This document shows positions 5,091 through 64,000 of a stretch of DNA of 64,000 nt, one piece after another; position 1 is the first letter of the stretch, and every line of letters begins with the position of its first letter. The DNA comes from Paraspadella gotoi (Eukaryota; Animalia; Chaetognatha), in NCBI GenBank assembly GCA_051294375.1, contig CM119267.1, positions 17,028,606 to 17,092,605 on the forward strand, read 5' to 3'. The notes under the pieces are model-generated. The model was not told the DNA's origin. It searched no databases and was given only the letters and a program-made list of their open reading frames with translations. Both the position numbers and the translations under genes were made by a program.

Positions 5091-6894
5091 GTACCCCATG
5101 GGCTGGTACAACCGTCGCTTTTAACATTTTCGCCGCTGGGTACAATTTAGGAATTCCCACTGTTGTTCCAATAGATATCAGAGAAGAGCAAAGAAGCTAC
5201 GAGACAGGTGATTTTATTTTTATTTACGAATAATCGAATGTTGACCTCGCAGTACGCCTTATTTCTTTTTTTTTTACAGGGGCTCAGCTTCTTCCTCATC
5301 CGCAATTATGGTCCCCGTCGGACCATGTTCACATGATGACTCCGAGACGAAATTTTACTGTGTTGAATTACAACAATTTCTTCAAAGCGTTGAATTTTTC
5401 CGTCGGTAAAATTAACCACGATAGAACCCTAAACCTCACTAAAAACCTGACTCATCCTGGCGTGGATGTATTTTGTGTTTATAGTAAAGGTATGCGCATG
5501 AGAACTATCTTTTAAATGTTTCTAATTTTATCAGGATGATAATGTGTGCATTTAAAGACTAAATTAAAGATTTAAACGGTAAATCATTGTCGTCTATAGT
5601 ATGTATACTGCATAGTAATCATTCTAATCGTTTAGGTATTCCGACTATGAATCAGCTGTATTATGACACTGACGAAGATTTCGTTAATGGGAAACAACCC
5701 AAACGTCGTTGGGTAAGATAATGCTATTCAGTAATTATTGTATCGAACGGCTTCAGTAATTTTTTCATTAATATTAACAGTCTACAATTAGCTTTTTGTT
5801 GCTTGAAGATTGACTCGTTCCAGAATTTTATACATGAACCATTTTAAAAAACAAAATTTAGATTTTTATTTTAATACTAAATATTAGTATTTATATTCAA
5901 ATGCCACTAATTTTTTCAGAGACCTTTGTAAAAGAATACCAATAAGCGGTAAAGATCTTAACAAGATTACAGTCGAAATAGATATTGATAGATAATCAAT
6001 TAATCATCCTCATCGCTGTTGCAATTATAAGTTTTTTGGCCTCGTTTGTCCATTGAGCTGGATATGAAGTTTCGAAGGAATCGTGCGAGTGGAAATGAGT
6101 ATAAATAGGAAAAAATATATATATATTTCACTATTTGAACGCCAATTACTTGTGAGTGGATGGGGCGATTGACTTAAAATGTGTGATTAAGCTGATAGAA
6201 TCGTCTGAGTGGAAATGAGTTTAAATGGAAAAAATAAAAAAACCTGTTTCGCTAATTGATTATGCTTCTTTTTATTTTTATATTAAATGTAAATACAAGA
6301 TGTATTAATTAATCAACTAATTAATTAGTTAATTAATCAATAATAAATTAATTATTCCATCAATATATTTATCTATTAATTAATTATTAAAACAATCAAT
6401 TTATTTATCAATTATTTAATCAATCAAGTCAATCGTTATTGCCAAATATTGGCATTATTGTCGTCGTTGCCATCATCGTCGTTGTTGCTTTTGAGGTGAT
6501 CAGTGACGAAAAGACCTAAAAACAAACATTTCGGATGAAATTTATTAATTAATTACCGCTAATGATCGTGGGCAGATCCGACATTGTTTGCTCAAACTTG
6601 TTTCTATTACTTTCTTCCGAGGCGATAAATCCCATTAAATCGTTTGTCAATTTCTTTACAGCTAATTGTGCGATAAATTTTTGGAACTCCATAATCTCTC
6701 ATGTTTTACAGGGCGACGGCGACGGCTCGGTCAATCTTGTTAGCCTTCGTCTTTGCGATAAATGGGTTAATATGTCGCGGCGTGACGTCCATGCTGAATC
6801 TAAAATATTTTTGGACTTGGATCACTCGGGAACATTAAAAAGTCAAGTTGTATTTGACTATTTAAAGTTGATACTTTCTTCAAATCAAACATGA
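5091..6894 (+). CDS. PLA2G15: Group XV phospholipase A2 / LCAT-family acyltransferase, 3' exons (5091-5207, 5280-5489, 5636-5712, 6712-6894); 5' part upstream of window
   Basis: Spliced translation GTPWAG..IREEQRS..LLPHPQLW..PGVDVFCVYSKGIPT..GDGDGSVNLVSL..DH matches LPLA2/LCAT GAPWGG, PGVxxxCLYG and GDGDGTV motifs; window starts with gtaagg, a likely donor of the preceding ~5-kb intron. Confidence 0.85.
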
Positions 6895-7659
6895 AATAAA
6901 GGGATATTAAAATGAAATTATGTTCAAACTAAATTAGTTAAAATCATTTGCAGTTTTGCAAATTGGTTCGAAAATCGTTCGTGATTAACTGATTAAATAT
7001 GTTATTTAATCAAGAAAATATTAATTAAATTGATAATCAGGGTTCATCTTTTAATTTTTTATCGTCGCAATCGCTTTGCGTTTGCGACGATATTGCTTTG
7101 GTTTTGCTCATAGTGGCGTCGTCGTCGTTGGCGTTCCAAATTATAGATCGCTTTTTTTATGATTAAATTTGGGTGTATGAAGCTAAAAATTTATATACAG
7201 CTTCTCATCATCGATGTGCTTAAAATTGAGTCTGGACAGTTATTAAATATGTTTTGTTTACGTTTTATCAAAACAAACAAATTTTTTTTTTTTTATTTCT
7301 TTCACTCTCTCTCTTTTCTCTTTTAATTACATGTCTCTCTCCCTCTCTATTTTCCCTAGTTACTGATTCATAGACAAAGGGGAAAAACGAGTCTGCAGCT
7401 GGCTCTGCAGGGGCTTATTCTTTTTCTCTCTTTTCTCCTGCTGCTTCTGCTACTGCCTTTTTATTTCTTTTTTTTTTGGCTTCTCTCTCTTTCTCTCTCT
7501 CTGGCAGAGACTCTGCGTTTTAATTTTTTTAAAAATTTTAATGAGGAATCCTCATTGAGGATTGAACTCGTAAAATTAAGAGTCTCATTCGTGCATGTTA
7601 TCGTTTTGCTATCTCAACATCGGGTTTTTATTTCGTTCTTTCTCGTCACTCTTTATTTT

Positions 7660-7885
7660 TATTTTTCTTTCTTTCCTTTCTATTCTTTCTTTCCTTTTTA
7701 TTCTTTCTTTCCTTTTTATTCTTTCTTTCCTTTTTATTCTTTCTTTCCTTTTTATTCTTTCGTTCCTTTCTATTCTTTCTTTACTTTCTTTCCGTTCTAT
7801 TCTTTATTTCTTTCCTTTCTATTCTTTCTTTCTTTCCTTTCTATTCTTTCTTTATATTTATTCTTTTCTTATTTTTCTTTCTGTT
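7660..7885 (+). repeat. Pyrimidine-rich 18-bp tandem repeat (ttctttctttccttttta)
   Basis: Directly visible; explains spurious FPFYSF and LSFLFI ORFs. Confidence 0.9.
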
Positions 7886-8172
7886 TATAAAATTTTTCAA
7901 ATTTGATTTTTTTTAGTATCAAAATTTGTCGTCAATCCAGATTTTTCTTATGCGATTGCGACGATCCTTATGCTTTTAAGATTTTTTTGGTGTGTTTTTG
8001 CAATACAGAAATCATACGATTTCAGCATTGTCGCAGTTGTTTTGTTCATGATTAAGTTTAATAAAAGGAAAAGCAAACTATTATCATTATAAACTATTTC
8101 AAGACTCAAAAGATACTCCTACTGTTATTGAAAGCTTATGTTTTTATCTTGTAAGAGAGAAGGAGACCTAAA

Positions 8173-8774: not shown

Positions 8775-10879
8775 ATGTCTGAGCCCGAACACCCAGTGGG
8801 AGCAGAAGGGGATGAAAACGAAGTCGAAATGACACCAGGATATAAACCACCAGCTCAAAAAGCTTTGTCAGAGGTAATTTATATTGATATATTGATTATC
8901 CTGATATTTATCTAATTATCGTTTGAACTGAACTAAACCCCGCTAATAGACTTTGTTCTCCGAGTCGTAATCCGATTGCTCTTTGAGTAAAGCCATTTGC
9001 TAATGACCACTCTGTACACTATGCAGTGTGTACCAGTGTGTTTCCTGTTCAATCTAAACCAGGTACTTAAAGGTATCTACGCGATTTACAAAAAATACCG
9101 TATCTCGTAAGGACAAAGTATTTAACGAACGATGAAAGCACGAACGCTGAAATGATCCCAAACGATAAATTCTTGTCACGAGTCCGAGCTCAGATATCAC
9201 GATTAGAAACCTTGTCAATAACTTTTAGAAATTAAGGATCGACTGCAGGTCCCAAGGATCACGGTTAAATTTCAGCTTAATTTATTGACTTCTTTCTGAT
9301 CATTAGTATCCAATCTCGTCGATCATGATATATAATATATCCTCGGCGATTATGGTATCTGAATTCCTTTAATTTCTTCCAAAAAATTATCCTCCTCCGT
9401 ACCGTTTTGTTCTTTTAACGTTAATTAATAAAAACCTTGCTCTTCGTTTCCCCATAGACCTCTGAAGCGTATTAATCTCCAGGAAGGCCTCAATCTCACT
9501 TTTCTTTATACAGTAATCTGCAGTCAGTGCTTCTTTTTTTTGTAGATTGTCGCGGCTGACAAAGAAGACGAAGCCTTGGAAAAATACAAAAAGAATTTAC
9601 TAGGGGATGTCGCCGACGGTAGTACGGTTATCATCGACGAAAAAAATCCCGAGTAAGCCTGCTGAAAGTTTCGTTCAGCCGTTTGTTGTTTCATGGTGAT
9701 AATTTTGGAGGGTTACTTTTACTTTCGCCCACCGGGGTTAGGGAGGAGTTAGGGTTATTGGTGGTTAAGGGGTAGTTTAGGGTGAGGGGTAGTTAGGGTT
9801 AGAGTAATTAGGTAATATATTTTGTTAAAAATAGGTTGTTTTAAGTGTTTTTTTCAAAATCGCTGTCGGTGAAAGTAAAATTTATCCATTTTGAAAATAA
9901 AACTAGATTTAAATTAGTCAAATGTGAGCAAAAAGTATTTATGCTTCTCCCCTAACAGTTTAAAATATATTATGGTGGACTAAAATCCACCAACTGTCTT
10001 TTCAATATTTTCTCATGTTTAATTGTGTAATGTTTGGGAAAACCTAATCCAAGACGCTTGATGCTTTTCGTAAGATCAGATGGGCGTGCAAGCTAGTGAT
10101 GGAGGGCGGATTCTGTTTGGAATTCGCGCGGTGCGGCAGCGCATCGGTGATTGCCCACGTGGCCGGCCACAGTTTTAACGCGTTGCACTTGCATTTCCTG
10201 ACAGCATTATTTCCTCTTTCTTATTAAAGTCTACATTTCATTTTATACGTTTTTTTTTTCAGTCGCGTTATCATTACAAAGATGGAGTTTTTAACAGCTG
10301 AGAAAAGCGGTCTTGAAATAGATTTGACGACGGCGGACGTAGACAAGCCAACCTTTATCATTAAGGAGGGAATCAAATACACGTATATAAAAATAATAAT
10401 ATTATGCAAAAATAAGAAGGCAAAAAAAGCAAATTAGTTTTGGCAACTTGCTACTATCTATTATTTAAATTAAAATTTCTTTTTAAACTTTTAAAATTTG
10501 ATCGAAGGCTGAAGAAGAATTTTTTTTATTCAGAATTCGAATTTGGTTTTATGTTCAACGAGAACTTGTTTCGGGATTAAGATATCATCATTCTGTCAAG
10601 AAAAGTATCGTGAGCGATAAAGAATCGCACATGGTTGGATCTTATGGACCGAGAAAGGAAATATACCAATTTACTACTCCTGAAGATGAACTCCCCACTG
10701 GGATTTTGGCCAGGGGTAAGTCTTTTCGTTTTAAGCTTCGATTTTGAATAGCAACGTTTACAAATTATAATTTTCAATCTCTAGGTAGCTATACCGTTCA
10801 TTCTAAATTTGTGGACGACGACAAAAAGATTTACAGGCAATGGGATTGGAAATTCAAAATTCAGCAAGATTGGGAATGA
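8775..10879 (+). CDS. ARHGDIA: Rho GDP-dissociation inhibitor, 5 exons
   Basis: GYKPPAQKALSEIVAADKEDEALEKYKKNLLG..FIIKEG..VQRELVSGLRY..HMVGSYGP..ELPTGILARGSY..SKFVDDDK..W.W.FKIQQDWE*. Confidence 0.95.
9708..9889. mobile_element. Second copy of the telomere-repeat-like MITE, in RhoGDI intron 2
   Basis: ttttactttcgcccaccgggg ... gtcggtgaaagtaaaattt with internal gttaggg units. Confidence 0.75.
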
Positions 10880-12385: not shown

Positions 12386-15300
12386 ATGCTTACAAAAAAA
12401 AGCTACGTCAATGTAGCCTTGGAGGAATCTCGGAGTAACTCCAAATCTGAACAAACAATCGTTGTGAAACCTACGAGGCCCACAGAATATTGGAGTGATC
12501 AGGTATTTCCTGAACGGTAGATTTGATTAGAATAATTTTTAAAAAAATTAAGGAAATTAGCTCATAATCATTATTGTAAAGTGAAAAAATGACGATTATT
12601 TTAAGGAACGGAAATCATGGATGTTCGGAGTAGCAACCGGATGCATGATGGCTTACTCAGCCAGAGTTGCACTTCCTATATGTGCCGTACAAATTTCCAA
12701 AGAAATGGAATTAACAAAAGAGGAACAAGGAGTTGCTCTAGGTTGCTTTTTTTGGGGATATACCCTGACACAGGTTTCTTTGAGTATGGCAGTGTTGATT
12801 GTTTTTAAGAAATTTTTATTATTGTTTACTCTTGTCTGCAGATCCTTGGTGGTGTTTTAGCTGACAAATACGGAGGCGACAGAGTAATGACATGCTCAGG
12901 TTTAGTCTGGTCTTTGACTACCATATTACATCCTGTCCTTCTTGGCCTTTGCAGCGATTACAGCCACAATTTAAGACTTAATCTTTTAATTTTTTTGAGA
13001 GCCGTAACTGGTCTGTTCCAAGGTAATACACATTTTTTGTAGCTTTAGTGTTGCGTGAACAATGTAGATTTTTATAAAAAATTTTCACCTCAATTTTACA
13101 GGGGTTCATTTTCCAAGTATATCCAGTCTTCTAACACAACGCATCGCGAAAGAAGACCGTTCATTTTTTTGGGGAATTATTTCTGCCTCAAGTGGCATTG
13201 GAACTTTGACAATGGGAAGTCTTGGATCTGCTCTTTTAGGTACCCACTACCCAGAATTTCATTATTATTATCTAGTAATTTAAAAATGTATGTATTTATA
13301 ATTAGTTTTTGCACTTTAAATTTGTTCTTATCTCAATCTTTGAAGATTCTAATTTTATAGTACAGTCAGTTATTAAATATATATTTTTATCTCGCCAGAC
13401 GGGCTTAAGAGGAAGGGTCATTCAGCTTCATTATACGTAAACTTCTATATATTATAGCTATCACGTTAAGAAATATATCTTAGTCATCAGTTATCACAAA
13501 AGAATTCCTTTTTCTTTATATGTAAACATTCCGTTTAAAATATTTTTTTTTAATCGGTAAATGAGAAGTGTAAAATTAAATCAATGAATCGCGTCAATGA
13601 ATGACTATTATCGCGTCAATGAATGACTATTATCCCGTCAATGAATGATTATCATCGCGTCAATGAATGATTATCATCGCGTCAATGAATGATTATCTTC
13701 GCGTCAATGAATGACTATCATTGCGTCAATGAATGACTATCATTGCGTCAATGAATGACTATCATTGCGTCAATGAATGACTATCATCGCGTCAAGGAAT
13801 GACTATCATCGCGTCAAGGAATGATTATCATCGCGTCAAGGAATGACTATCATCGCGTCAAGGAATGACTATCATCGCGTCAAGGAATGACTATCATCGC
13901 GTCAATGAATTACTATTATCGCATCAATCTTTTGGTTATTATCGCATCAATCTTTTGGTTATCATAGCATCAATTTTTTGGTTATCATGGCATAAATTTT
14001 CTGGTTATCATCGCATCAATCTTTTGGTTATCATCGCATCAATCTTTTGGTTATCATCGCATTAATCTTTTGGTTATCATCGCATCAATCTTTTGGTTAT
14101 TATCGCATCAATATTTTGGTTATCATCGCATCAATAATTAATTATTATTATATCAATAAATTATTAATATATCAATAATTTGTTATCGTTGTTTTTTTCT
14201 TCATAGTATATTAATTCTCTCTTTTTGTTGTGTAGGGTGATTAGTAAAAACGGATTTGAAAATTATTTTTTCATTAATTTTCTTTAATAGTAACGTCTGG
14301 CGAGATCACTATACTTTTAAGTATTTTTATTGTATTTTGACTTTCTTTTTGCTATTTAAAATAGTTTAGAGATGAAACGAAAAATTCGTTGGAATAGCAA
14401 TTTTATTAAAAAAAATAAAAATAAAAAAATAAAATTGCTATTCCAACGAATTTTTCGTTTCATCTCTAAAGTATTTTTATTTTACTTTTTTAACTAACCG
14501 AGTGGTGGTAACAGTTTTTTTGTTTTTTTTTAGATAATTTTGGATGGCAGGCTGTGTTTTTCTTTTGTGGAATATTTTCACTGTTTTGGGTATTATTTGT
14601 ATGGTTCTATTTACTTAAACTCCAAAATTCTTTCAACCTATCCAAGTTACTTCCTCTTGTGTCCTCCGAGAGAAGTAACTATGCACTTTTGCCCCAGCAT
14701 TCCAGTAACAAAAAAACATTGCTCCATAGGTTAGTGCCAAAAAACTTACCTACTTTTAATGTTTGTTTACTTCAGTTATATTGTACAAAAAGAATTTTAG
14801 GGTTATATTAGGCATTCTAAGCCTACTTTTTTGTATTTAATTTTTTTATTTCACAGCCCTGGCCGCAAACTGGAATTCCTAAATGCTAAGCCTCCGGACT
14901 TGACTGTTCCCTGGTCGCTCATTTTGACTCACCATGCCGTTTGGGCTTTAATTATATGTCACGTCGTTTCCACTAATTGTTTTTATATTTTGTTGTCATG
15001 GTTGCCTACTTTCTTTCACGAATCATTCCCCGAGGCGAAAGGTATCGTAAAATCATAAAAATGTACATCAAAAAGTAATTCCGATTTAAGTTTAAATTTT
15101 ATAATTTAGTTTAAAACTTAACAGTATTTAATAATATTTCTCCGATTATATTTAATGAAAATTTTAGGGGTCAATTTCTGTGTCAGTACTAAATGGTTTA
15201 AATTATATTTGCGTAGTCATTTGAAACTGTGTTACTTGAAAATCCCTTTCTGCTTTTCAGGTCACGTTTTCAACGTTGTGCCATGGCTCGCCTACATTCC

Positions 15301-15804
15301 CCTGTGCATCGCTTCAGGATGGGCGTCCGACATTTTGATCCGTCGCGGAGTCAGCACGTCAAAAGTCCGTAAAGGGTCGGAGCTAGTGGCGCTCGGCGGC
15401 ACTGCCTGCATCCTCTGTCTCATTCCAATGGTTGACAACTTCTACTTGGCGCTCTTTCTAGTCTCCTTGGCGCTAGCGTGTTTCTCGTGCCATGCGGGAG
15501 GACACAACGCCAATTCACAGGTGGCGTATTAAAGATTTTCCCATATCACTCTTACGGCAATTTAAGATTTGTGAAAACTTTTTTTCTTACTGTCTAGGAT
15601 CTCCTTCCCGAACATGCTGGATCCATGTTTGGCTTGATGAATACCGCGGGTGCCATTCCCGGCTTCGTGGGCGTTTATCTTACAGGATTTATTCTTCACC
15701 TTACAAACGAAAACTGGGGTGCTGTCTTTGGAACCACCGCCTTTATCTGCATCTCGGGTTGGGTCTTCTACGCCGTTTTTGGGAGAGGTTCTCGGATAAC
15801 TTGA
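12386..15804 (+). CDS. SLC17A9: SLC17A9 / vesicular nucleotide transporter (MFS)
   Basis: YSARVALPIC..CFFWGYTLTQILGGVLADKYGG..QGVHFP..VPW..ILLSWLPTFFHESFPEAKGHVFNVVPW..DLLPEHAGSMFGLMNTAGAIPGFVGV. Confidence 0.9.
13389..14315. mobile_element. Non-autonomous element with short subterminal inverted repeats and an internal 22-bp minisatellite (HINE/DINE-like)
   Basis: atctcgccagacg at 13389 and cgtctggcgagat-cactatac at 14294; same ends at 43681 and ~44235; tandem array 13578-14140. Confidence 0.7.
14365..14470. repeat. Perfect ~43-bp-arm inverted repeat (collapsed MITE)
   Basis: tttagagatgaaacgaaaaattcgttggaatagcaattttatt, A-rich loop, then its exact reverse complement. Confidence 0.9.
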
Positions 15805-16166
15805 ACGCGATCAAATGACTGCCAAACTGTTGCCCTTCGTGGCTCGCTCACTGAAACTACTATGTAGTTTTTATTCATTAGTGTGAAATCCGGGCTTAGA
15901 TGCAACTAGATAATTAAATCCTCTTTGTAGAGGAAATTAGTAAAAAAATTTGTTTTATGTAAAATTATCCAAATATTAGATTAGCAGTATTCTTGTCTCA
16001 AAACGTGTATATTTTTATACCTCCACGCAGTTTTATTTTTATTTTGCATTCTCCACAAATGATAGGCAATCGTTTATTCCACCAATGAGGAATTATGTTT
16101 TCCAGTTTTAAAATCGTCTATCTATATTTTTTCGTCGGTAGATAACTACGCAGTTTAACTTTGAAA

Positions 16167-16951
16167 ATGTCCTCGGGATCGGAATCCGATGAGATTGTCG
16201 AGCTGGCCTCGAAGACTCGTCCAAAGCCCCAGGTATGTTTCTTACTAGTTTTGAATTAGTGAAACACTTGCTTTCAAATATTTGGTTTTAATTTTTCAGA
16301 GAAAGCGAAAAACGAGAACTAAAAAAGATCCTACAAAGCCCAAAAGAGGTGACGTCATCCTGTAAAAAAATGTTTACTCATCTTATAAATTAAATTTTGA
16401 TTTAATTTATTATAGGTCTTTCACCATACTTCTGCTTCATGAAAGAAGAGAGGCCTAAGCTCATGGCAGCTCGGCCTGGATTAAAAGTCGGAGAAGTTAC
16501 CAAGGTTCTTGCCGCCCAATGGAACAAATTAGGTGAAACAAAGTGATCATTTTTAGGGTTAAAAAAAGTCATTTTAAAGTTAAAACTGGTTATGAATATA
16601 AAACTGGTTATGAATCAGATTATATAATTATAGTATCAATATTGATTTTCCTCCCGAATTTTTTTTTTCACCAAGACTCAAAAGCCAAAGAGAAATTCGT
16701 CAAACTCGCTGACGAAGACAAGGACCGCTACTTGGAAGAGATGAAAGAGTGGGAGGCAAAACAGAATGCAATGTCTAAAAAAGTGAGATTTTAATACAAG
16801 CAGACGTGCTATGTGCCTTGCTCTTATTCTTTGTAATATCAACATTAATTCCCTTCAGGCCTCTGTTCCTCCGAAAAAAGTAAAAAAGCAAGAGGAAGTG
16901 GAAGAAGAGGACGAGGACGAAGAAGATGAAGAGGAAGCAGATTCTGAATAG
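16167..16951 (+). CDS. Single HMG-box protein with acidic tail (HMGB/NHP6/HMG-D-like), 5 exons
   Basis: KKDPTKPKRGLSPYFCFMKEERPKL..PGLKVGEVTKVLAAQWNKL..KEKF..DKDRYLEEM; tail EEVEEEDEDEEDEEEADSE*. Confidence 0.9.
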
Positions 16952-17935: not shown

Positions 17936-19429
17936 ATGGGAAATTTAGGAAAAATCGGTAAACCTCAAAAAAGTAAAAAGCACAAAAAACTTAAACCTTG
18001 CGACCCATTTAATAAAAACCCGAAAGGAAATCAAAGTCAAAAAAACGCGAACAAGGAAAAGAATCTGAAAAACAATGAAATCGAAAATCAAGAGATGAGT
18101 AGATCACTGAAAGAATTTATAAGAAACAAAAAAAAGGTAGGTCAAAGTTACCTTGTTTATAAAAGGCTAGTGTAACGTATATTATTTAAATTTTATATCT
18201 TATAATTTCGAATAGCTGCAGGGACAGCTAGATAATCCTAGCTCGCGGAAGAAATCGATTATACAAAAAAAATCAAAGGATAACGAGTTTCAAACAAATG
18301 AAGATTTTAAAGGAATGACAAGACGTTTAAGAGACGTTCCCAAGTTTAACCAAAAGAAAGGTACCGTTAAAAACTTTTGTCTGTCTTCATGAACTTGGTA
18401 CAACCAATATAATAATTGTCCATTCATTTAATAAATCTTGCCCCTGACTTTGGACAGGCTTGGGTGGTTTAAGGCATCCATCACTCTTACAAGATAATGA
18501 CATAGCCGGTCCCTGTAAGACTCTCTCAGTCTCGTTTATTCACTCCCAGAGTACCTGTCTTCCGTATCAATGAAGTGGAAAAATGTTTTAAAGAATGTTT
18601 CAATTGTATGAAAAGACCACTTCCTTAAGTATTAGTTGTTACATGTATACATGTTTTAGTCATGTTTATCTATTGTTAATTTTAAAACTATTCATAATCG
18701 TTAACAATTACAGGCGAACGCGATTTTCAATTTATTAAACGAGTCGAGGCCATCTCGCAAGAGGTCTTGGGAGCATCAAGGTTCGAAGACAAGTACAAAC
18801 TGAACGTCAATCCCACTGAGGAGGAACTAGAGAACAAGAAAAGAAAAAAAGAAGAGTGGAAGGCCAAAAAGCGTGAGAAGAGAGAGAAAAAGAAAAAGAG
18901 GCGCGGTGAGTGACAAATTAATCTTATGGACAAATTTCGAGTGGAGCTTTTAGAGAAATGTATTAAAAAACTTCTTAGAAACTTTATTTTTTCCCCATTT
19001 AACATAGGTAACGACGTGACTAATGCAGTCACGCAGTTGGCGGAGAAAAATCGGGCTCAGATTCGGCATAAAAAGTCTCTGGATTTTAACGATCTTCGGG
19101 ACGACGTTCCTTTCGGCGAAGTGGTCCTCGCTCCACCGACGCTCACTGCGATTCCTCGGAAAGCGGAAGTCTCCAACTCCCGACCAAAGAACTTACTTCT
19201 GGCGTCGATGGTGGGATCAAAGGGGATCAACAGCGACAACTCATCACGCGAGAAACACGAGCAAAATAAGAACAAAAACAATGGAGTGAAAACGAAAAAA
19301 GTCATGAAATTTAAAGACATGTCTGTCGCGCAAAAGGCCACCTTGATCAGGGAGAAACACCGGGTTATTGAACGATACAGAAAAATGCGCGATGGAACTC
19401 TGTTCGGGCGAAACACTGTGGCTGTCTAA
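17936..19429 (+). CDS. CCDC137: Coiled-coil domain-containing protein 137 (nucleolar)
   Basis: KKHKKLKPCDPF, QEMSRSL, VPKFNQKKGE, DDVPFGEVVLAPPTLTAIPRK, REKHRVIERYRKMR. Confidence 0.8.
18388..18497. repeat. ~110-bp dispersed repeat; copies at 41423-41531, inverted at 31692-31800 and 8126-8462 (split), fragments near 48770 and 54440
   Basis: Shared tggtacaaccaatata..tccattcatttaataa..atcttgcccctgactttggacaggct..ggtggtttaagg..ccatcactcttaca. Confidence 0.8.
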
Positions 19430-19525
19430 GCGTATTTAAGCGGAAACCCTTAGTTATTTCTTTGGAAGGTTTTGATTGTTCGTTTTGTTATTTTTAGATT
19501 TTTAGATTTAGCTCTATTTACGAAA

Positions 19526-22055
19526 ATGTCTGTACTTCAAAAAATCGCCGATATCGAGGCTGAAATGGCCCGAACTCAGGTATTTTGGGAGGGGAAAGGA
19601 GCCTAAATAGTAGCCTCCGTTTAAAGAAATCAATTGCAGCACCAATAAACATACTATTTTTTTTTTTAGGTGAACAAAGCAACGATGGGTCACTTAGGAA
19701 TGTTAAAGGCGAAGTTGGCTAAACTGAAAAGAGAGTTGATTGCGCCATCTTCCGGTGGTGGTGGAAAGGGCGAGGGGTTCGACGTCGCTAAGACGGGAGA
19801 CGCCAGAATAGGGTAACTGTTGCCTAATGCAATGAAATTTAGAAAATTAACCATTTCGATCTTTTAAATCTTTGTATTCTCGACGTAAATTTAGTTTCGT
19901 CGGGTTTCCGTCTGTCGGCAAGTCCACTCTTCTCACCAACTTGGCCGGCGTTTATTCTGAAGTAGCAGCTTACGAGTTTACCACGCTTACCACTGTTCCT
20001 GGAGTAATTCGGTATAAAGGTAATTTCAATGAAGTCTTGGATGATAATTATTTTTTTTTAAATCCTCGTTTCACTGAATTAGGCGCGAAAATTCAATTGC
20101 TTGATTTGCCCGGCATCATCGAAGGCGCTAAGGACGGAAAAGGTCGAGGGCGACAAGTAATCGCTGTCGCTAGAACCTGCTCCCTCATTCTCATTTGCCT
20201 AGACATTCTCAAACCGTTGGGTCACAAGAAAGTAAGTTCATTTGTATGTTGTGTCTGAATAGAAAAGGATGAGGCTCTGATAAGGACGACGAAGTGTTTC
20301 GCCCCCTTCGCGTCCGTTTTGCCTTGCTAGTGCCAGATTAATTTTTGAAGTGGACGCATTTCACGATGATCACTTTACTACATAAACATTACACAAGTAT
20401 GAAACGGTTACAACAAGTATCGATTTGTCACTTTTCATGAAATGTATGTACTTTAATAACCAAGTGTTACAACAAATAAAAGGCAACCGACTCTCTGATC
20501 ACTTGGTCAGTTGACCCATTCTAGTGAGAAACATTGACACAATAATTTAATGATACCTGACTTCTCTGCTAAATACATTATTAACTAATTATTAATTGAT
20601 TATTAATTAAAATTGCTAGAGTGTTATATGAATTGGTTCGTATATTTAGGTGATCACGTGACAACAAAATTTTAAAACACGTATGTAGGTTAAGCATGGT
20701 ACACCAAATATTAACTAAATCGATGCAGTATTACGGTATGTCACAATAAATTTGTATATATATATCATACTTCCGAAGGAATCGACCGAATCAAAGAGAG
20801 GAAGCCTCTTACTTTTGCTCTTTTTTTATAATTTTCGTGAGTTTGCGAGTAAAAGCTAGGAAAACGCCACCTGCTCCCTCCAAACATTTTGGAACAATAG
20901 AAACGACAATGAGCGTTGTTTTTCCCCGATGAAAGGAGGCTTGATATTTCGTCTTTGTATTTGTATGTTTGTATTTGTATGTTTGTCTACTACTCGCTCT
21001 GACTTACCTAGTCTCGTTTATTGAATAGTCGGTAAATCTTTCTTAAATATTTTTTCGGAATGCGCGGGTGAGAAAAAATTCAAATTAATGAGACTAGAAA
21101 TTTCAAAATATCTTTGCAGTTAATTGAACACGAATTGGAGGGATTCGGTATCCGGTTGAACAAAGAACCTCCTAACATCACTTACCGGAAGAAAGACAAA
21201 GGTGGGATTAACCTGACTTGCGCCGTTCCGCAGTCCGAGTTGGACCTGGATCTAGTGAAGGCGATTCTGGCCGAAAGCAGGGTTCATAACGCCGATGTCG
21301 TTTTGAGGTGAAGACGGACGCTTTTGCTCATATTATGATAAAAAAAATTTTAATGGTGCCATCTACATTTTATCAAACTTTGCTTTTCAGAATCGATGCC
21401 AAAGCGGAAGATCTTATTGATGTCGTTGAAGGCGATCGCGTCTATATCCCGGCGATTTACGTTCTCAACAAAATCGACCAAATTTCCATCCAGGTATTTT
21501 GGCCATTCGTACCGATAAGCATAGTAGTACGGTATTTACTAAATTCAGCATTTAATTGTCACTTTTAGGAGCTGGATATCGTATACAAAGTGCCGCACGC
21601 CGTTCCAATCTCCGCTCACCACAAGTGGAACTTCGACGATCTTCTAGAAACAATATGGGAATATTTAAAACTAGTCCGAATTTACACCAAACCCAAAGGT
21701 GTCATACAAATCGATCCGCATTTCGTTTCCCGTTCATTTTTAAATATATATATATTTTTTTGCGATTAAGGCCAACTCCCCGATTACAATGCCCCGGTTG
21801 TTTTGCAACGTGGAAAGACGACCGTTGAAGATTTTTGCATGAAAATTCACAAAAGCCTCGCCAAGGAATTCAAGGTTATAGCAAGACTGGTTATAATATA
21901 CTATGTAAGTAACCTCTATATAAATATAAGCGTCCGTATGTCGTCAACAGCACGCGATCGTTTGGGGTACTTCCGTGAGACACTCGCCACAAACCGTCGG
22001 AATCACTCACGTTCTCAACGATGAAGATGTGGTGCAAATCGTGAAGAAAGTCTAA
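19526..22055 (+). CDS. DRG1: Developmentally regulated GTP-binding protein 1
   Basis: [117 protein letters not shown]. Confidence 0.97.
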
Positions 22056-22268: not shown

Positions 22269-23182
22269 ATGGAAGGAAGGGTAAACGGTTGGAGCAACGG
22301 ACGAAACGATATAAACTGCGAGGAAGACGACGACCTCAGAAATAACATAAATGTCAGTTCGGTTGTGGAGGACGCAGACAGCGATTCTGACTCGGCGCCG
22401 GAATCGGTATCATTTCAAAAAGGACACGAATTCTTTGAAAACTCTGATAAACTCCGCCTGAAACAGATCGAAAAGGTTGAAAATTTTAAAAAAGGTACGC
22501 AAATTTCCAAGATAATGATATATTTATTTTAAGACTGCCTTTTTGTAATCGATGGGTACCATTTTCTCTCACCAGAAAATCGAAAGAAAAGAGACGAGGT
22601 CTTGAAAGAGCAAAAAGCCGCTAAATTGAAGCGACTGCAAGAGAGTAAACTTTCGACAGACTTCCTTGAGAAATTAACGTCTTTAGCACATTCGGAGGTA
22701 CGTGGAATCACCCGTAATAATTATTTCTGTTTCTAATATTAATAAAATTTTCTGTGATTTATCAGGTCCCTACGGGCTCGCAATCAGAGGAACCCCTTTC
22801 CATTAGTGCCCCAGATGAATCTTTACTCGCTAAGAAAAGAGAGAAGCGAAAATTAATTCCGCTTCCGGACGTGGATGGCGTCGAGTTCGAAGTCGTCGTC
22901 GGGAGATCGAGGGCAGACGAAGAAGTCATGCGAAAGAGTAAGGGCGAGACGGAATTGTCCAACGATTTAAATTTCATATAAATTTTTTTTGTGGTGGATT
23001 TAGAGTAATCAACAAGCGGGCGTAATTCGAAAAATAAAATAATTATCCCATTATTTTATTTTTTACTTACAGCGGAAAATTTCATCAAAGGCAAGATCAA
23101 GCATCCGTCTAAACCACGACTCTGTCAAACTAGGAAGCAGTCATTAAAAATGAAAAGAAGATTTGTTGCCAAAACTCGTTAA
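22269..23182 (+). CDS. NOL7: Nucleolar protein 7-like
   Basis: SDSAPESVSF..KKENRKKRDEVLKEQKAAK..LSTDFLEKL resembles NOL7 APEELTF..KRKRREELFIEQKKRK..LPDTILEKL. Confidence 0.6.
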
Positions 23183-23251
23183 AACTGCTTATTGTTACTT
23201 GCTGTTCTGTTTTAGTCATCCTTCATTAAATTGACGTTTTCTTGAAAGAAA

Positions 23252-25786: not shown

Positions 25787-25944
25787 TAGTTTAATTCAAG
25801 ATTTAGTTTTGTAAATTTGGATCGAAGATTCTATCGTTTTGTCATTGATTTTTCTACCCAAACCGTATATTGTTCGTGTTATTTTCATATTTCACTGTTG
25901 CATTTTTACTTCCTACGTTTTTTAGTCATAGCCCAATAATAAGA

Positions 25945-40836: not shown

Positions 40837-40874
<38 letters not shown>

Positions 40875-57634: not shown

Positions 57635-58084
57635 ATGTCTAATTTTGGTGGAAATTTTGACTTTCGAGTTTTCTCCGCTTGGTTCGCACGATTCGCCTTT
57701 GCAAACGGAATACCTCCTTTAGTAAACGCCGCATCGCAAATCCCATCTTCCCAGCAACCCACGCCTACACCCTCTGACACGCGCTGCGGCGACTTTTCTC
57801 ATCGCATCCCCCTCTCCCAACAAAGGGATATAGACCAAAGGTGGGTCGACGCTTGGCTCGTCGAACGCGGCCTTCTAAGGGCAGACGGAAACGGGATGCC
57901 CCCAAAGCCGCCACAGAGACGACGCCGCCCACCGACGTCGGAGGAGGAGAAGAAGAAGCGTCGATCTAAGAAGCGGGAATGGAGGCGTAGAAAACGGATT
58001 GAACGAGACTTTATAGGACACTCTATTAGAGAAGTTGAATCTCCGATGACGGAAATCGAAGTTTCAAAGGGAACAATTAATTAG
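57635..58084 (+). CDS. Intronless 149-aa protein, weakly PDCD7 (U11-59K)-like
   Basis: GC-rich exon-like composition between AT-rich spacers, upstream tttcag acceptor, aaaATG context; QRDIDQRWVDAWL and KKRRSKKREWRRRKR motifs. Confidence 0.6.
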   Translation: MSNFGGNFDFRVFSAWFARFAFANGIPPLVNAASQIPSSQQPTPTPSDTRCGDFSHRIPLSQQRDIDQRWVDAWLVERGLLRADGNGMPPKPPQRRRRPPTSEEEKKKRRSKKREWRRRKRIERDFIGHSIREVESPMTEIEVSKGTIN

Positions 58085-58318: not shown

Positions 58319-61300
58319 ATGGACCGGTTTTGGTCTTCGTTCCAGTTGCTGGTCGGCAGTGGAGGCTCGTCCATTGGGATCACTGATGACGATCACGTGG
58401 ACGATGGACCGGCGACCGCCGCGGTCGAAACTCCTGAAACCGAAAGTTTGGAAAAGACGAGCAGCGATTTCTTGTGTCAGGACTTGTTGACTTCCGGATC
58501 GAATTCTCTCTTGCGTATGGCCGAAGAAACGAACAAGGAAGATGCAGTCGCGGTAGCCTCCATCGGCGCCGATTCCCCAGGCGGTTGGGACATCAAAGGC
58601 CAACTCCTTGGCGCCGGCGCCAGGATGTGGTCTCCTATCTCTTCGTCACACAGGATCGTCAAAAATTTTTTGTGGGGCGTCGGGAGCGGCGCGGATTCCG
58701 GTGAGGGTCGATGTTTGGTATTTTATTTTGTTTAAAATATGAAGTTCAAAAATTATATCATTAATGATTTCCCTTACGCAGCTACTCGGACGGAACTGTC
58801 GACGAACGGTGCCGATGGCGACGTTCTCTGCTTCGGCGTCAACATTCCGCTCGAGAGTCGTACTAAGGAAACGGCACCCGGAGTCTATTTCTCGCGCGTC
58901 GATGTCCTCAAGATGGTTAAAAAGTGCCCTGGGGCTAGGTTTAAAGAGTTTAAAAGCGTCAAGGTGAGATTCCGGCTAAAACTGTGACTCATTACTGGAA
59001 TCATAAACCTCGAAGTTATGTGACGACTCACTAATTCAGGAGGCAGAGATCTTTGCCGCTTTGACCGAGGACGATCTTCTCAACGCCAGTCTTCTCTTGA
59101 AGACGCCATCCAAGCCTCGAAATCCTGTCTTTATCGATAGTCCGCCTCCACCGTCACCCCCAAGGCTGCAACCGCAGCAACAAACTGCCCTTCAGCAACA
59201 GCAGCAGCAGCAGATAAAGTTGAAGTTGTTGCAGCAACAACAACAGACTTTGATGAACGGCCCGGCTGGTAACGCTGAGAGGCTACCTTTTAAAGCCCCG
59301 AAACCTCAGGAACTGAACGCGATGAGGCGGTACATCAGTTCAGGTTGTTATGAAGGAATGCTTTACATTAAGAGAAACTAGGTAACGTGCTAAATATTGT
59401 TTGATGTAGTATTTCAAATTTTTTACGTTGCTTCAGGAAATATGGAAGCCTTACGCACTTTGATATGGTCCAACCCGCGCTACTTGATCTCGAGCGGTGA
59501 CACGCCCACTATTGTTCAACCCGGATTTCATTACACGGCAATGCACGTGGCCGCGAGGATCGGGAAGCACGAAATAGTTGGTTAGTGGAAAGCATAGAGG
59601 CTTTTAATGATTGCATTGTCTTGTTATTGTTGTCGACCCGATTGTTGTCATTGTTGTCGCTGCTTTTGGTCATTGTTGTTTTGAGCTGCCTTAGCATGCA
59701 GTATTAAACTTTGACTTTTAATATTATTTCGTAGAAATGTTGATAGCGACTTTGAGCGACGATCGTTTCATGAGGATTCTCTATGACAGCGAACCGGAAC
59801 AGGTTGTCAAGAGCCGACAGAAATTTTTGCTGGACCTTTACATAAACTTGCCCGGTAATTTTAGGGGGGGGGAATTAGTTTAACCATTTTAAATCGGGTG
59901 ATGATTATTTAAACTATGTACAAACTACTATGTATAAGACTTGGGGGTTACTAGAACGAGACTTTGCTACACAGATAAGGGCGCGAACGACACGCCGCTT
60001 CACTTGGCGTGCAAGTACGGCCACGCCGAAGTCATCCGAGTCCTACTTCGTCACCCGTTGACTTCGCGGAACGAAGTAAACAAATACAAAGAGACCCCGG
60101 CGCAGGTCATTTGGTCTCGATGTCCTCAAGCCGATTCCGAAGACGCCGATTCCGCGCGCCTCGAGATCGAAGCCCTCTTTGAGAGTCTCTACGTCGTTCC
60201 CATCTTCCGTCCCGATAATGGCATCGGTGTCCCGAAGATCTTAAGTCCCGCGCTTCTTTCGACCGGTATAGTGGCGGGGTTGAGGGGTAAAGTTATTAAA
60301 TTAGGTTCTGGCCTTATTTTACTTTTAACTTCGAGTTTTCTAACCCCGAATTAAGTTTCGACCTCGCTATCTCACTCCAAGTCGAACTCACACCATAGCA
60401 ACTACACCCTATGCGCCTATGCGGGTCCCATGTCGCAAAACCGAGCGGCGGACTTTCGACAACGCCTTTCGCGACCGGTTCGTCCTCCGGGCCGATCCAT
60501 AGTTGCGAGTATAAGTTCGACAGATTCGATGTCGCCCAGCGCCGCCGCCACCTTTGCCTCAGCCACGCCCCTCCCTTCCGGAACGAAGATCCGCCCTTCG
60601 CTTTCGACGCCCCCGTCCATCCACTCCTCGCTCGGCACCGTCAACGGATTATACTGCAATCAGTCGTCCTCCCCTCGCGTCGTCGATAGCGAAAAGGGCC
60701 TGGAGCATGAGGCCCGGCAACTGGCGTCGGAAATGGGTGTTGCTTGGCGGGAGAGATGGGAGTTTCTCGGACCTGAGCTGATCGATTTCGGTCGCGCAGA
60801 AGACCTTAACAAAATGGAAGAGTTCTTCGCGCAGACTTATAGGGCGGCGGCGGAGACTAATTTGGACGAGGCCGAGTCCTCTCCGCCATTAGAGGATTCA
60901 TTCGCCGACGACGACAGCCTCGGCGATTTGATCCACAGTTTTCGCAGCCAACTCGTCATCATGTCACCGTCAAAGGATGAGGCGGAGTTGCGGCACCCGC
61001 GGGGACGCCCACCGCTGGTAGAAGAGAACATTTTTCTATCAGGGACTAACGAACATCGATCGCCCGAGACTTTGCAAGAGCTTTGTCGAATGGCGAACCC
61101 GTTCGGGAACGTCGAGGGGGACATAAAACCTTTTAGGTCGTCCACTACGCCTTTCGAGGTTTTATTCTTCGTAAAGGGTGAGTTTTGAAAGGACGCTTGT
61201 CTTGTCTTGCCATTAAGCCGTTAAAATTTGACGGATGTCAGATTATCATTGCGAATCTAACATTTTCAACAATGAGTATTCTTTTTACACCTTCAGGTGA

Positions 61301-61791
61301 TTTACCTTCCAACATCGACGCGGAACTCTTTCACGCCCTCGACGCCGCTGGTGTTGATGATTCAACCTTCCCTCACTTGGCTAAATGGCGGCGTTGTTTG
61401 CGGTACCGCCACTCAGAGGAGGAGCGTCGCAAGTGGCCGTCGACTCCCGGCCTCACGAAGCCTAAGAGAGGGACGAACCTCGGTGCCGGAGAAGTGTCCG
61501 ACTTTTTTCCTTATCAAACAGGTTTTACACCAGTTGGGGTTTTTAATTTATTACAAACGTAATTGAATTTTTTTATAACTTCTATTTTTTATTTTTTGTA
61601 TAGGGCTAAGGCCTTTAACATTAGCCTTCGAAACGACGCCGACCATTCCGAGGAGAAAAAACTCTTTGTCGAAAAAGACAATGGACTCCTGTAGGAGTCG
61701 GTTGTACGACGAACTGACCGTTGACTCAAACGACAGCGCTGACTGTGTTAACAGTTGCAACAGTGATACTGTCTTCACATCTGAAAGATGA
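58319..61791 (+). CDS. ANKLE2: Ankyrin repeat and LEM domain protein 2
   Basis: VKKCPGARFKEF..EAEIFA; FKAPKPQEL; IWSNPRYLISSGDTPTI; DLYINLPDKGANDTPLHLACKYGH; YAGPMS; DSEKGLEHEARQLA..WRERWEFLG; FVKGDLPSNID. Confidence 0.93.
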
Positions 61792-62841
61792 CCACAGCCG
61801 AAGCTTTTTTTTTTCAATATTTTTAGAGACTGATTTTGGGATCTGTGCATCGCCGCGCTGTTATATTTTTTTCTGTTTTCGATTAATCGTACTGACATAA
61901 TTCTTTTAATTTTATGGTGGCTAGTTTTTTAAATTTGCATTGTCAATTCGCTCTCTTCCGCCCTTCTGCTTAATACGAGAACAGTTTTTATAGTAAATGG
62001 GAAAGTATTTTCCTTGGTCGTCCGTCCAACGAATTTAAATTTCATGGTGCCAAAGTAATCAATATTTTTTAACGTTGGAAGAATTTCATCCTAATGTAAG
62101 TTAAGTAATTTAAAGTAACCTCGGTCCTGGCCATTTTCAAAAGTTGCGAGTTTTTCAAAGTTTGATGGAAGCTAAGAAATTAGCCACATATTTTGGTTTA
62201 TGAGAGCTGACGATTTTTTTTTGTTCAGATGGGTGAAAATTATATAAACCCTTTGAGCTTGACCCGAGAGTTCCGGTTTTAAAATCCAGGAAGTTGATGG
62301 CTTTAACAATTGTATCTGCGGCGTCTCTGCTGCTGTGTGTACTGCCACAAGCAGCAGCGGAATCGGTTTTTAACTGGTCTCCAAATATTTCGGTGTTATG
62401 AAAAAACGCACATTAAATTTTGTAATATTGTCATTTCAAAGTCTAAGATTAATCAGTAGTTTTTTTTTCACGCTTGATCTTGAGCAGTTTCAAGGCGTCG
62501 AGATTTGAAAATTCTGTTCAATTCTCTGAACGCCCGTACTCTACGATCTATCCCTTTGTATTGAAATTATTATTTTTAATCATAACGTTATCGCTCTTTT
62601 TTTCTTTTTCTGTGAGATCGATTTACAGATGCCATATATTGTTTCTTAAAGTATTTTTAAATAGTACTGTTATTGAGTTATTTTTATTAGAATTTATGCA
62701 CCGCCACAATACCACCTTTTTATTTACAGTACGGAATTATACGTACTTAATGAGTGCCACGATTTTTTTTTAGCGTCAATCCTTTCGGGGAATTGCAGTT
62801 TCAAAATATTTTAACTTTATTGAGCGAACTTCTGCTACAAA

Positions 62842-64000
62842 ATGACAGAAAACATGTTCGGAGTGTTGGAAACTATCTCGGATCAGGCATCCCAACTTAC
62901 TGCTTTTGTTGACAAATTGCGCGGCGATTTCGAGACGGAAACCTCAAGAACAGATGAAGCGAAAGTAAGGAAAACTAATGAAGTTTAATGATATCACTAT
63001 CGTATATATTATATAAAATATATTGTATATGCATCTTATTCTTTTTTTTTTTTCAGAATATCGGATTAAGCTATCTCGACGTGAAGAACCTGCTCTTGTT
63101 AAATTATAATTGTGACATTGCTCATGTAATTCTGTCTAAATGCAAGGGAAGGTATGATATTCCACTGAGGCTTAGTTCATTGTTTGAGGGGACGGTGACT
63201 AATTAATCTGTCATCGTTTCAGGTCCCTCGTCGATAACCCCGCCGTCGATCGATTGACGGAAACTAGGACGGTGATGGAAAAGACTCGCGGCGTTGATCT
63301 CAAACTGAAGTACCAAATCGAAAAGCTCGTTAGAGCCGCCACAGTCGAAACTCAAGGTTAGAAAGCGACCATGACCATTCTTTACTAGTATCGTTTAGTT
63401 GTCTCGAGCGGATCGTGCAAATTCTTGGCAATCGTCAATTCTTCAAGCTTCATAATTGTTTAGATAAAGACAATCAATGCAACTTTAATATAGGCGCGGG
63501 TAACGATCCTCTCAGCTTCCGCCCGAATCTGACCGGTTTTGACGAAGACGATGACGTTGACGGAGATGATGACGATAAAACTAAATCGAAAAAGGACGGC
63601 GTGTATCGACCGCCTAAGTTAGCCGCAGTCAGATACGACGGCGACGATACTGAGGCGGTGAAGAGGGAAAAGCGGGCTAAGATAAGGTCCAGGGCTGTCG
63701 CCAACGCTGCCTTACTCAAGGTATTTTTTTTTCCATTAAAAAAAAAATCACCCAATATTGGCGATGTTATTAGTTATAAGTAAACCTTTATTTCTTATTT
63801 AATGTAACATTGAATGTTTACTTATTTCGTAGGATCTTGATCTGGACCGTGAAGAGCCAGAGGAAATATTCGAGAACAACGTTCACCGGTTCAAGGAAGA
63901 TCGAAGATTAGCGGAAAGAACCAAATATGAAGAGGACAACTTCACTCGCCTTGTACTGACCAAGAAAGACAAAGGTGAGAACTTTTAAGTGATTCTTTGT
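62842..64000 (+). CDS. NGDN: Neuroguidin (Lcp5 homolog), 3' end beyond window
   Basis: GLSYLDVKNLLLLNY..AVDRLTETRTVMEKTRGVDLKLKYQIEKLVRAA..DPLSFRPN..GVYRPPKL..ERTKYEEDNFTRL. Confidence 0.93.

What the first reader, a model, noticed from the sequence alone, without database searches (positions are those of the whole stretch)
5091..64000. Nineteen unrelated intron-containing genes on one strand: a very long eukaryotic operon-like cluster
Seen: every gene I could reconstruct lies on +, with no intact minus-strand gene in 64 kb. Stop-to-ATG gaps: CCDC137-DRG1 96 bp, DRG1-NOL7 213, NOL7-Fbox 69, Fbox-IK 158, IK-NDPK 180, NDPK-H6PD 250, H6PD-SMG7 374, SMG7-TUSC2 199, ACAD9-ORF 220, ORF-ANKLE2 234. 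Known: this layout marks polycistronic units processed by spliced-leader (SL) trans-splicing in nematodes, tunicates and flatworms, usually with only a few genes each. Inference: at least 9 genes (CCDC137 to TUSC2), possibly nearly all, are co-transcribed, which would be exceptionally long for an animal.
Basis: partly seen in the sequence, partly recalled or inferred. Interest (0 to 1): 0.9.

Follow-up and report, generated by a model that had tools for sequence, protein, structure and literature searches.

The report
Very long animal operon candidate
In an unidentified invertebrate, 19 mostly unrelated housekeeping genes lie head-to-tail on one strand across 64 kb and assembled RNA runs unbroken through four of the ten gaps tested, so a core of 9-11 genes is likely read as one long RNA and likely cut apart by splicing on a short leader, although no leader sequence was seen.

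Summary
Observation confirmed. 19 reading frames lie on +: 15 with a family hit, 3 named by resemblance but covered by RNA, 1 unverified ORF. All 11 quoted gaps reproduce exactly. None of 82 minus-strand ORFs outside exons reaches a Pfam cut-off. One RNA run (contigs only), laid on 15.7-39.4 kb, fits the exon models. Single spliced contigs cross 4 of 10 spacers (SLC17-HMG, DRG1-NOL7, NOL7-F-box, NDPK-H6PD); 5 are not crossed and 1 is unresolved. The SMG7 contig aligns from exactly the base after the strongest splice acceptor of its 374-bp spacer, with about 5 unplaced letters in front. The IK contig starts one base past an acceptor. Both fit leader trans-splicing, but no shared leader was read, and IK's 30 foreign letters look like a chimera. 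Best reading: an animal operon resolved by trans-splicing, with a 9-11 gene core at or just above the published maxima I read (7-9). One transcript for all 19 genes is untested. The lineage is unresolved: a fast-evolving invertebrate with no named close relative. The scan noted similar 2-3 gene clusters in other genomes before.

The parts
5091..6894 (+). Last 4 exons of a group XV phospholipase A2/LCAT-like gene; its 5' part lies upstream of the window
   Evidence: model; PDB hit E 7.5e-7
8775..10879 (+). Rho GDP-dissociation inhibitor, 5 exons, 200 aa
   Evidence: Pfam Rho_GDI
12386..15804 (+). MFS transporter (SLC17A9-like name recalled), 8 exons, 483 aa
   Evidence: Pfam MFS_1 below cut-off; contig length fits the spliced CDS
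15805..16166 (+). 362-bp spacer crossed by one spliced contig (SLC17 to HMG)
   Evidence: table 8, piece 15700-16229
16167..16951 (+). Small HMG-box protein, 5 exons, 143 aa; contig continues to 17638 (AATAAA about 25 nt before that end)
17936..19429 (+). CCDC137-like gene (name recalled), 4 exons, 319 aa
   Evidence: RNA depth
19482..19512 (+). Cluster of acceptor-like sites (exon starts 19498, 19506, 19512) in the 96-bp spacer before DRG1; contig start best fits 19497-19502 (weak, assumption-dependent)
19526..22055 (+). DRG1 GTPase, 9 exons, 366 aa
22056..22268 (+). 213-bp spacer crossed by one spliced contig; two AATGAA, then an acceptor at 22220
   Evidence: and 22 table 8, piece 21949-22492
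22269..23182 (+). NOL7-like gene (name recalled), 4 exons, 209 aa
23183..23251 (+). 69-bp spacer covered by the same contig; acceptor at 23216, no donor scoring 3 bits or more
   Evidence: 409.2 letters observed in the bin, 409 expected with and 340 without the spacer
23252..25786 (+). F-box/WD-like gene (name recalled), 10 exons, about 460-470 aa; contig ends near 25854
25855..25933 (+). Uncovered T-rich stretch of 77 nt ending in an acceptor (exon start 25932); IK contig aligns from 25933 behind 30 foreign letters
   Evidence: table 7
25945..28701 (+). IK/RED splicing factor, 12 exons, 601 aa, two GC-AG introns; all 11 joints seen in a contig that ends at 28794
28882..29578 (+). Nucleoside diphosphate kinase, 4 exons, 153 aa
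29579..29828 (+). 250-bp spacer crossed by one spliced contig (NDPK to H6PD)
   Evidence: table 8, piece 29409-29882
29829..34274 (+). H6PD (G6PD-6PGL fusion), about 17 exons, about 880 aa; contig ends at 34415
34416..34504 (+). Uncovered 88-nt T-rich stretch ending in the strongest acceptor of the spacer; SMG7 contig aligns from 34504 with about 5 unplaced letters in front
34649..38930 (+). SMG7-like EST1 gene, 16 exons, 1043 aa
39130..39537 (+). TUSC2, 2 exons, 109 aa; acceptor-like sites at 38960 and 39025 upstream
40056..42303 (+). Adrenodoxin (FDX1), 4 exons, 164 aa
43307..49349 (+). Equilibrative nucleoside transporter, 12 exons, 500 aa
50153..57414 (+). ACAD9-like acyl-CoA dehydrogenase, about 17 exons (model imperfect near 51200-51570)
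57635..58084 (+). Intronless 149-aa ORF behind a strong donor-less acceptor (57584); no homologue, gene status unverified
58319..61791 (+). ANKLE2, about 9 exons (last exon frame not fixed)
62842..64000 (+). Neuroguidin-like Sas10/Utp3 gene, runs off the window
   Evidence: Pfam Sas10_Utp3 below cut-off

Best explanation
Nineteen reading frames lie head-to-tail on one strand and spliced RNA contigs cross four of ten tested spacers, and the core of 9-11 genes (SLC17/HMG or CCDC137 to TUSC2) is likely one polycistronic transcription unit that is likely cut into single mRNAs by 3'-end formation plus trans-splicing of a short capped leader onto the donor-less acceptor in front of each gene. Shown: gene layout, cis-splicing, spacer-crossing contigs, SMG7 contig start on an acceptor. 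Inferred: one polymerase reads through the spacers; the upstream mRNA ends 30-90 nt before a T-rich acceptor; a leader is added there. Untested: leader sequence, promoter positions, and whether the flanking genes with 0.5-1.9 kb gaps belong to the same unit.
For: (1) Layout: 8 consecutive gaps of 69-374 bp. (2) Single contigs with introns removed cross SLC17-HMG, DRG1-NOL7 and NDPK-H6PD (table 8) and NOL7-F-box, so DRG1, NOL7 and F-box sit on one 3500-nt contig. (3) Two independent binnings put the first aligned base of the SMG7 contig at 34503.8-34504.1, the base after the best acceptor of the 374-bp spacer (90th percentile of 121 intron acceptors); record length leaves 5.3 letters unplaced. 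Six of 374 positions are acceptor-like, so chance is about 2% or less. (4) The IK contig starts at 25933, one base past an acceptor, with non-local letters before it. (5) Contig end to next acceptor is 77, 32 and 88 nt of 47-53% T, close to the about 100 bp reported for C. elegans and Macrostomum operons. (6) All 18 upstream regions hold an acceptor scoring above the 10th percentile of real ones; summed best score 114.9 against 97.7 +/- 7.9 in 500 dinucleotide shuffles, p 0.018; plus beats minus strand in 15 of 18. (7) T exceeds A on + in 18 of 18 spacers, as in introns. (8) Cargo is unrelated housekeeping genes, as described for animal operons.
Against: No shared leader was read: in 19380-39370, with 8 gene starts and 12 contigs, only 2 loose ends were listed, and the one at a gene start (IK) is GC-rich, exactly 30 letters, joins one base off the acceptor and can be read as coding sequence, so it is probably a library chimera. 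The 5 letters before SMG7 cannot end in G, or the alignment would begin at 34503; most known leaders end in G (recalled). 5 of 10 spacers are not crossed and 1 is unresolved. All RNA evidence is one run of one study, as unstranded graph contigs that cannot show a single molecule. The acceptor enrichment is modest and single spacers are mostly not significant (2 of 18 at p 0.01). T-richness is also expected of ordinary UTRs. The DRG1 start fit needs the CCDC137 contig to end inside its coding sequence, which I cannot explain.
Confidence: 0.45

Rival explanations
1. Trans-splicing and operons are real here, but the run is several short operons of 2-3 genes (SLC17-HMG; DRG1-NOL7-F-box; NDPK-H6PD; ACAD9-ORF-ANKLE2 and so on) plus single genes, each with its own promoter, in a genome with a general same-strand bias.
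For: The contigs break into exactly such blocks: 5 of 10 spacers are not crossed. Most published animal operons have 2-3 genes. Eight gaps are 362-1880 bp, room for promoters.
Against: The uncrossed core spacers leave only 32-88 nt between contig end and acceptor or are 96 bp in all, too little for an outron plus promoter outside the upstream gene. Breaks are expected where the precursor is processed fast. A filter also removes contigs: part of NDPK itself is uncovered.
Confidence: 0.25
2. Ordinary single-gene transcription in a compact genome: each gene has a small promoter, often inside the neighbour's 3' end; overlapping UTRs or read-through join the contigs; the strand run is a tail event.
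For: No leader read. A compact animal genome without operons or leaders is known (Dimorphilus). Graph contigs join genes whose UTRs overlap by 30 nt.
Against: Needs overlap in 4 of 10 spacers, including one of 69 bp, and needs the SMG7 and IK contig starts to fall on acceptors by chance (about 2% and 4%). No head-to-head or tail-to-tail pair in 18 junctions.
Confidence: 0.18
3. The genes are co-transcribed but not resolved by a spliced leader: stable multi-gene mRNAs, or a short cis-spliced first exon or read-through splice supplies the 5' ends.
For: Fully spliced multi-gene contigs; contig mean depths all lie within 215-475 (the tool warns that depth cannot rank genes); no leader seen; non-G last letter before the SMG7 acceptor.
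Against: Local donors before the SMG7 acceptor score at the 2nd-7th percentile, and the two better ones (34447, 33575) end in G, which would have aligned. Three-ORF mRNAs would need internal initiation, rare in animals (own knowledge).
Confidence: 0.12

Closest known systems
Chaetognath SL-resolved operons (Paraspadella gotoi, PMC12460157 passages; Spadella cephaloptera, PMC2481426 passages and section 12)
   Same: Same-strand housekeeping genes under 250 bp apart; longest reported operon nine genes; gene bodies lack methylation there, and coding CpG o/e here is 1.21. Leaders as printed in Table 3 end in A, which would fit a non-G letter before the SMG7 acceptor (lead only).
   Different: Leader shown there, not here. 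The nine-gene example is described with ribosomal, ubiquitin and proteasome genes, not these. The window's phylum is not established. By their 250-bp rule on stop-to-ATG gaps the run here is only 6-7 genes.
C. elegans-type nematode operons, SL2-resolved (PMC7986045 section 3; sizes from PMC8629364 passage)
   Same: About 100-bp T-rich stretch between upstream 3' end and downstream acceptor; short introns; 2-8 genes.
   Different: Acceptors here are a general pyrimidine tract plus YAG (T at -5 59%, at -4 40%), not the strict TTTCAG of rhabditids (recalled). No evidence for a specialised second leader.
Macrostomum lignano operons (PMC8629364 passages)
   Same: Conserved housekeeping genes, spacer mode near 100 bp, repeats inflate spacers, maximum nine genes.
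   Different: Flatworm leaders end in ATG (recalled), which would have aligned one base further at SMG7. Leader not shown here.
Tunicate operons: Oikopleura dioica (PMC11067885 passages) and Ciona (PMC7986045 section 25)
   Same: Head-to-tail packing of loosely related housekeeping genes; a nine-gene operon is known in O. dioica; the 500-bp rule used there gives 11 genes here (SLC17 to TUSC2) once the HMG 3' end is taken from RNA.
   Different: Ciona operons are mostly two genes with about 1 bp between cistrons; O. dioica median is about 31 bp. No tunicate protein was among the named TUSC2 hits listed.
Kinetoplastid polycistronic gene clusters (PMC7986045 section 3)
   Same: Long one-strand runs of unrelated genes, all trans-spliced; the model for the most novel reading.
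   Different: Those genes are nearly intron-free (recalled) and cover the whole genome; here genes have up to 17 exons and only 64 kb were seen.

Membership tests
SL trans-splicing-resolved animal operon | Adjacent same-strand genes with short intercistronic distance | tested here: met
   8 consecutive gaps of 69-374 bp; 19 of 19 frames on +
SL trans-splicing-resolved animal operon | Polycistronic precursor spanning the spacers | tested here: inconclusive
   Contigs cross 4 of 10 spacers, 5 not crossed, 1 unresolved; contigs do not show single molecules
SL trans-splicing-resolved animal operon | Unpaired 3' splice acceptor before each downstream gene | tested here: met
   Acceptor-like site in 18 of 18 upstream regions, p 0.018 against shuffles; in the 8 core spacers donors of 3 bits or more are absent in 3 and score at most 5.3 in the rest; use shown by contig start at SMG7 only
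SL trans-splicing-resolved animal operon | Identical non-templated leader on the 5' ends of several mRNAs | tested here: inconclusive
   About 5 unread letters at SMG7, 30 probably chimeric letters at IK, none listed at the other 6 starts; contigs drop short tips, so absence is not shown
SL trans-splicing-resolved animal operon | SL RNA gene (leader, GT donor, Sm site) elsewhere in the genome | not testable with these tools
   No genome held; no Rfam hit in the window
SL trans-splicing-resolved animal operon | One promoter at the head, none inside | not testable with these tools
   Needs CAGE, ATAC or H3K4me3
Nematode SL2-type operon | Specialised leader for downstream genes | not testable with these tools
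   No leader read
Ciona-type operon without intercistronic DNA | Poly(A) site abuts the acceptor (about 1 bp) | tested here: inconclusive
   Contig ends lie 32-88 nt before acceptors at three junctions, but contig ends are not mapped poly(A) sites
Kinetoplastid-type genome-wide polycistronic clusters | Most genes of the genome in long one-strand units | not testable with these tools
   Only this window is available

The most novel reading that the evidence does not exclude
The whole run, 19 or more intron-rich genes over more than 64 kb and open at both ends, is one polycistronic unit, about twice the longest animal operon in the papers I read, in an invertebrate lineage not yet known to trans-splice: an animal with trypanosome-like gene clusters.
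Probability: 0.12. Interest if true: 0.88.

Novelty: new member of a known kind. Interest (0 to 1): 0.55.

Why it matters
Animal operons are known from a few lineages and mostly hold 2-3 genes; the maxima in the passages I read are 7-9 (Ciona, C. elegans, Macrostomum, Paraspadella, an Oikopleura example). A proven unit of 11-19 intron-rich genes would push that limit and ask how one polymerase passes ten or more polyadenylation sites over tens of kilobases without terminating. If the animal belongs to a group without reported leaders, it adds an independent origin of trans-splicing. The locus is also a compact test of the proposed link between loss of gene-body methylation and trans-splicing (PMC12460157 passage), since coding CpG is not depleted here. 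If the run is only a row of short operons in a chaetognath, nematode or flatworm, it is an ordinary example.

Tried and rejected
No whole genome is held, so strand-run statistics and an SL RNA search were impossible. The run search listed one holder, not on record as RNA; its spliced joints show that it is RNA. The two sister runs X2 and X3 matched only 6 and 7 short pieces and gave nothing on gene order. The 30 foreign letters at IK were considered as the leader and rejected as unlikely: not in the window, no exact match in metagenome contigs, GC-rich, one base off the acceptor, length equal to a graph overlap. Uncovered stretches (25855-25932, 28795-29054, 34416-34503) are not evidence of absence because a filter removes contigs. 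SMG7-TUSC2 coverage could not be solved from the bins. Lineage: H6PD and TUSC2 each have one clearly closer relative, unnamed, on JGI, ENA and Logan contigs (55% identity for H6PD against 30-36% for named molluscs, an annelid, a millipede, urchins and hagfish). The H6PD tree was the quick method only and its link to the millipede row has SH-aLRT 88, so I do not use it to name a phylum. The relative's DNA could not be fetched (0 of 35 pattern matches confirmed). The Atlas gave only scores under 0.8 for the ORF and did not answer for the H6PD relative. The chaetognath paper's 3 supplements held as text contain none of six gene names; its operon table may not be among them and could bear on lineage and on operon conservation. 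A bacterial promoter scan is irrelevant to this eukaryote. The Oikopleura genome paper was not held; my memory of operons up to 11 genes there is unverified and would lower the novelty of an 11-gene core.


Full report
Observation. I rebuilt exon models for the window by script. There are 19 reading frames, all on +; the first and last run off the window. Introns are mostly short (median 81 nt, 84 of 121 at most 110 nt). The core CCDC137-DRG1-NOL7-F-box-IK-NDPK-H6PD-SMG7-TUSC2 has 8 gaps of 69-374 bp; ACAD9-ORF-ANKLE2 has 220 and 234 bp; the remaining gaps are 362-1880 bp. Fifteen genes have a family hit (13 Pfam; 2 PDB). CCDC137, NOL7 and F-box are names by recalled resemblance, though RNA covers them. 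The 149-aa ORF has no homologue among 36 candidates or in the Atlas. On the minus strand 0 of 82 scanned frames reach a Pfam cut-off (194 frames that overlap plus exons were not scanned). Random orientation gives 4e-6; a genome-wide same-strand bias of 80% would give 0.018, and that bias could not be measured.

RNA evidence. One public run holds the locus. Its contigs skip the modelled introns (15 of 67 and 15 of 65 joints shown), so it is RNA. I could lay it only on 15700-39370. The depth bins of both calls fit my exon models to within a few letters in most bins outside repeats; the larger residuals marked model errors in F-box, H6PD and SMG7, and contigs I had not modelled. Three spacers are crossed by displayed contig pieces: SLC17-HMG (15700-16229), DRG1-NOL7 (21949-22492) and NDPK-H6PD (29409-29882). 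The 69-bp NOL7-F-box spacer is covered by the same 3500-nt contig (409.2 letters seen, 409 expected with it, 340 without). Five spacers are not crossed (HMG-CCDC137, CCDC137-DRG1, F-box-IK, IK-NDPK, H6PD-SMG7) and SMG7-TUSC2 could not be solved. A contig is a graph path, not a molecule, and a filter drops some contigs, so neither crossing nor a hole is proof.

Where the uncrossed contigs begin. Solving the bins for the SMG7 contig gives a first aligned base of 34503.8-34504.1 in both calls, and its recorded length leaves 5.3 letters unplaced in front. Position 34504 follows the strongest acceptor of that 374-bp spacer, at the 90th percentile of the window's intron acceptors; 6 of 374 positions are acceptor-like. 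Nearby donors are weak (2nd-7th percentile). The IK contig aligns from 25933, one base past an acceptor, behind 30 letters that are not in the window nor in metagenome contigs. These letters are GC-rich, equal a graph overlap in length and read as coding sequence, so I take them as a chimera, not a leader. The DRG1 contig begins 33 letters before the ATG; whole-number solutions without a listed loose end put its first aligned base at 19497-19502, which includes the acceptor at 19498, but this needs the CCDC137 contig to stop inside its coding sequence and is weak. So 5' ends fall on acceptors where they can be seen, yet no shared leader was read: only 2 loose ends were listed among 12 contigs. 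The unread letters at SMG7 cannot end in G, which is unusual for a leader (recalled) though it fits chaetognath leaders as printed in PMC2481426 Table 3.

Sequence signals. All 18 upstream regions contain an acceptor-like site above the 10th percentile of real acceptors. The summed best score is 114.9 against 97.7 +/- 7.9 in shuffles (p 0.018), and the plus strand beats the minus strand in 15 of 18. All 18 spacers have more T than A on +. From contig end to next acceptor there are 77, 32 and 88 T-rich bases in three core junctions and 290 at HMG-CCDC137. These signals are modest and are partly expected of UTRs.

Mechanism. Most likely RNA polymerase II reads through a run of housekeeping genes; each upstream mRNA is ended a few dozen bases before a T-rich acceptor, and a capped leader from a separate small RNA is spliced onto that acceptor. 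Layout, splicing, crossing contigs and the SMG7 start are shown; read-through as one molecule and leader addition are inferred; the leader and the promoters are untested. I put trans-splicing-resolved operons at about 0.7 in all: 0.45 for one core unit of 9-11 genes, 0.25 for several short units. Separate promoters get 0.18 and leader-free polycistrons 0.12.

Lineage. The animal has no named close relative in the searched collections. Its H6PD is 55% identical to an unnamed protein from JGI and Logan contigs and 30-36% to named molluscs, an annelid, a millipede, urchins and hagfish; TUSC2 shows the same pattern. Coding CpG o/e is 1.21, so gene bodies show no methylation footprint. Acceptors are not of the strict rhabditid type. 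A chaetognath would fit, as would other fast-evolving groups; this is a guess, not a result.

Comparison. Passages read: Paraspadella, longest operon nine genes, 250-bp rule (PMC12460157); Macrostomum, maximum nine, C. elegans two to eight (PMC8629364); Ciona six to seven (PMC7986045 abstract and sections 3, 25); Oikopleura, 500-bp rule and a nine-gene operon (PMC11067885); Spadella operon and leaders, and a leader in an acoel (PMC2481426); Dimorphilus, compact without operons (PMC7854359). By the 500-bp rule, with the HMG 3' end from RNA, this run has 11 genes, 12 if the 518-bp TUSC2-FDX1 gap shrinks with UTRs. Eight searches showed no title or abstract start on a longer animal operon or on this cluster; most listed papers were not opened, subscription papers are missing, and I recall without check that Oikopleura operons reach 11 genes. 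Earlier notes of this scan describe 2-3 gene candidates in other genomes; none is on this genome or a look-alike stretch.

Verdict. The pattern is real and more than random orientation would give. It works like a known kind, the trans-splicing-resolved animal operon; membership is probable but its defining feature, the leader, is unresolved. What lifts it above routine is the length of the run and the unplaced lineage. Interest 0.55.

Noticed in passing
window 1206-4786: Nested inverted repeats of 75-98% complementarity forming a 3.6-kb foldback element in the non-coding stretch upstream of the phospholipase exons (likely a long intron; the window opens on a GT donor-like site).
   Followed up: no
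window 13500-14180, 43890-44180, 47570-48500: The same 22-23 nt minisatellite family in three introns of two transporter genes, with a shared flank; likely a mobile tandem-repeat element.
   Followed up: no
window 45590-46080 (minus strand), partial copy 56093-56184: Intronic remnant resembling the C-terminal nuclease end of a non-LTR retrotransposon (recalled resemblance; no Pfam hit).
   Followed up: partly
window 18386-18600, 31736-31815, 41410-41536, 48767-48814: Short intronic repeat with very high summed depth in the RNA run (over 12000 per bin): a high-copy transcribed element.
   Followed up: no
window 28069, 28300, 35070, 40-odd other introns checked: GC-AG introns: two in IK confirmed by contig joints, one in SMG7 exon 2 by the depth fit; 4% of 96 modelled donors are GC.
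   Followed up: partly
window 57635-58084: Intronless orphan ORF of 149 aa with a basic C-terminal tract, between ACAD9 and ANKLE2 and behind a strong donor-less acceptor; could be a young gene captured into the unit.
   Followed up: partly
window 27730-28068: IK carries an RS-rich repeat where RED proteins usually have RD/RE repeats (recalled).
   Followed up: no
window 19380-19429: The CCDC137 contig appears to end about 15 nt before the stop codon; unexplained.
   Followed up: partly
P0278 (unnamed Logan contig, 5929 nt): The relative's intronless H6PD sits on a contig twice the length of its coding sequence, which may mean it is joined to a neighbour there too.
   Followed up: no
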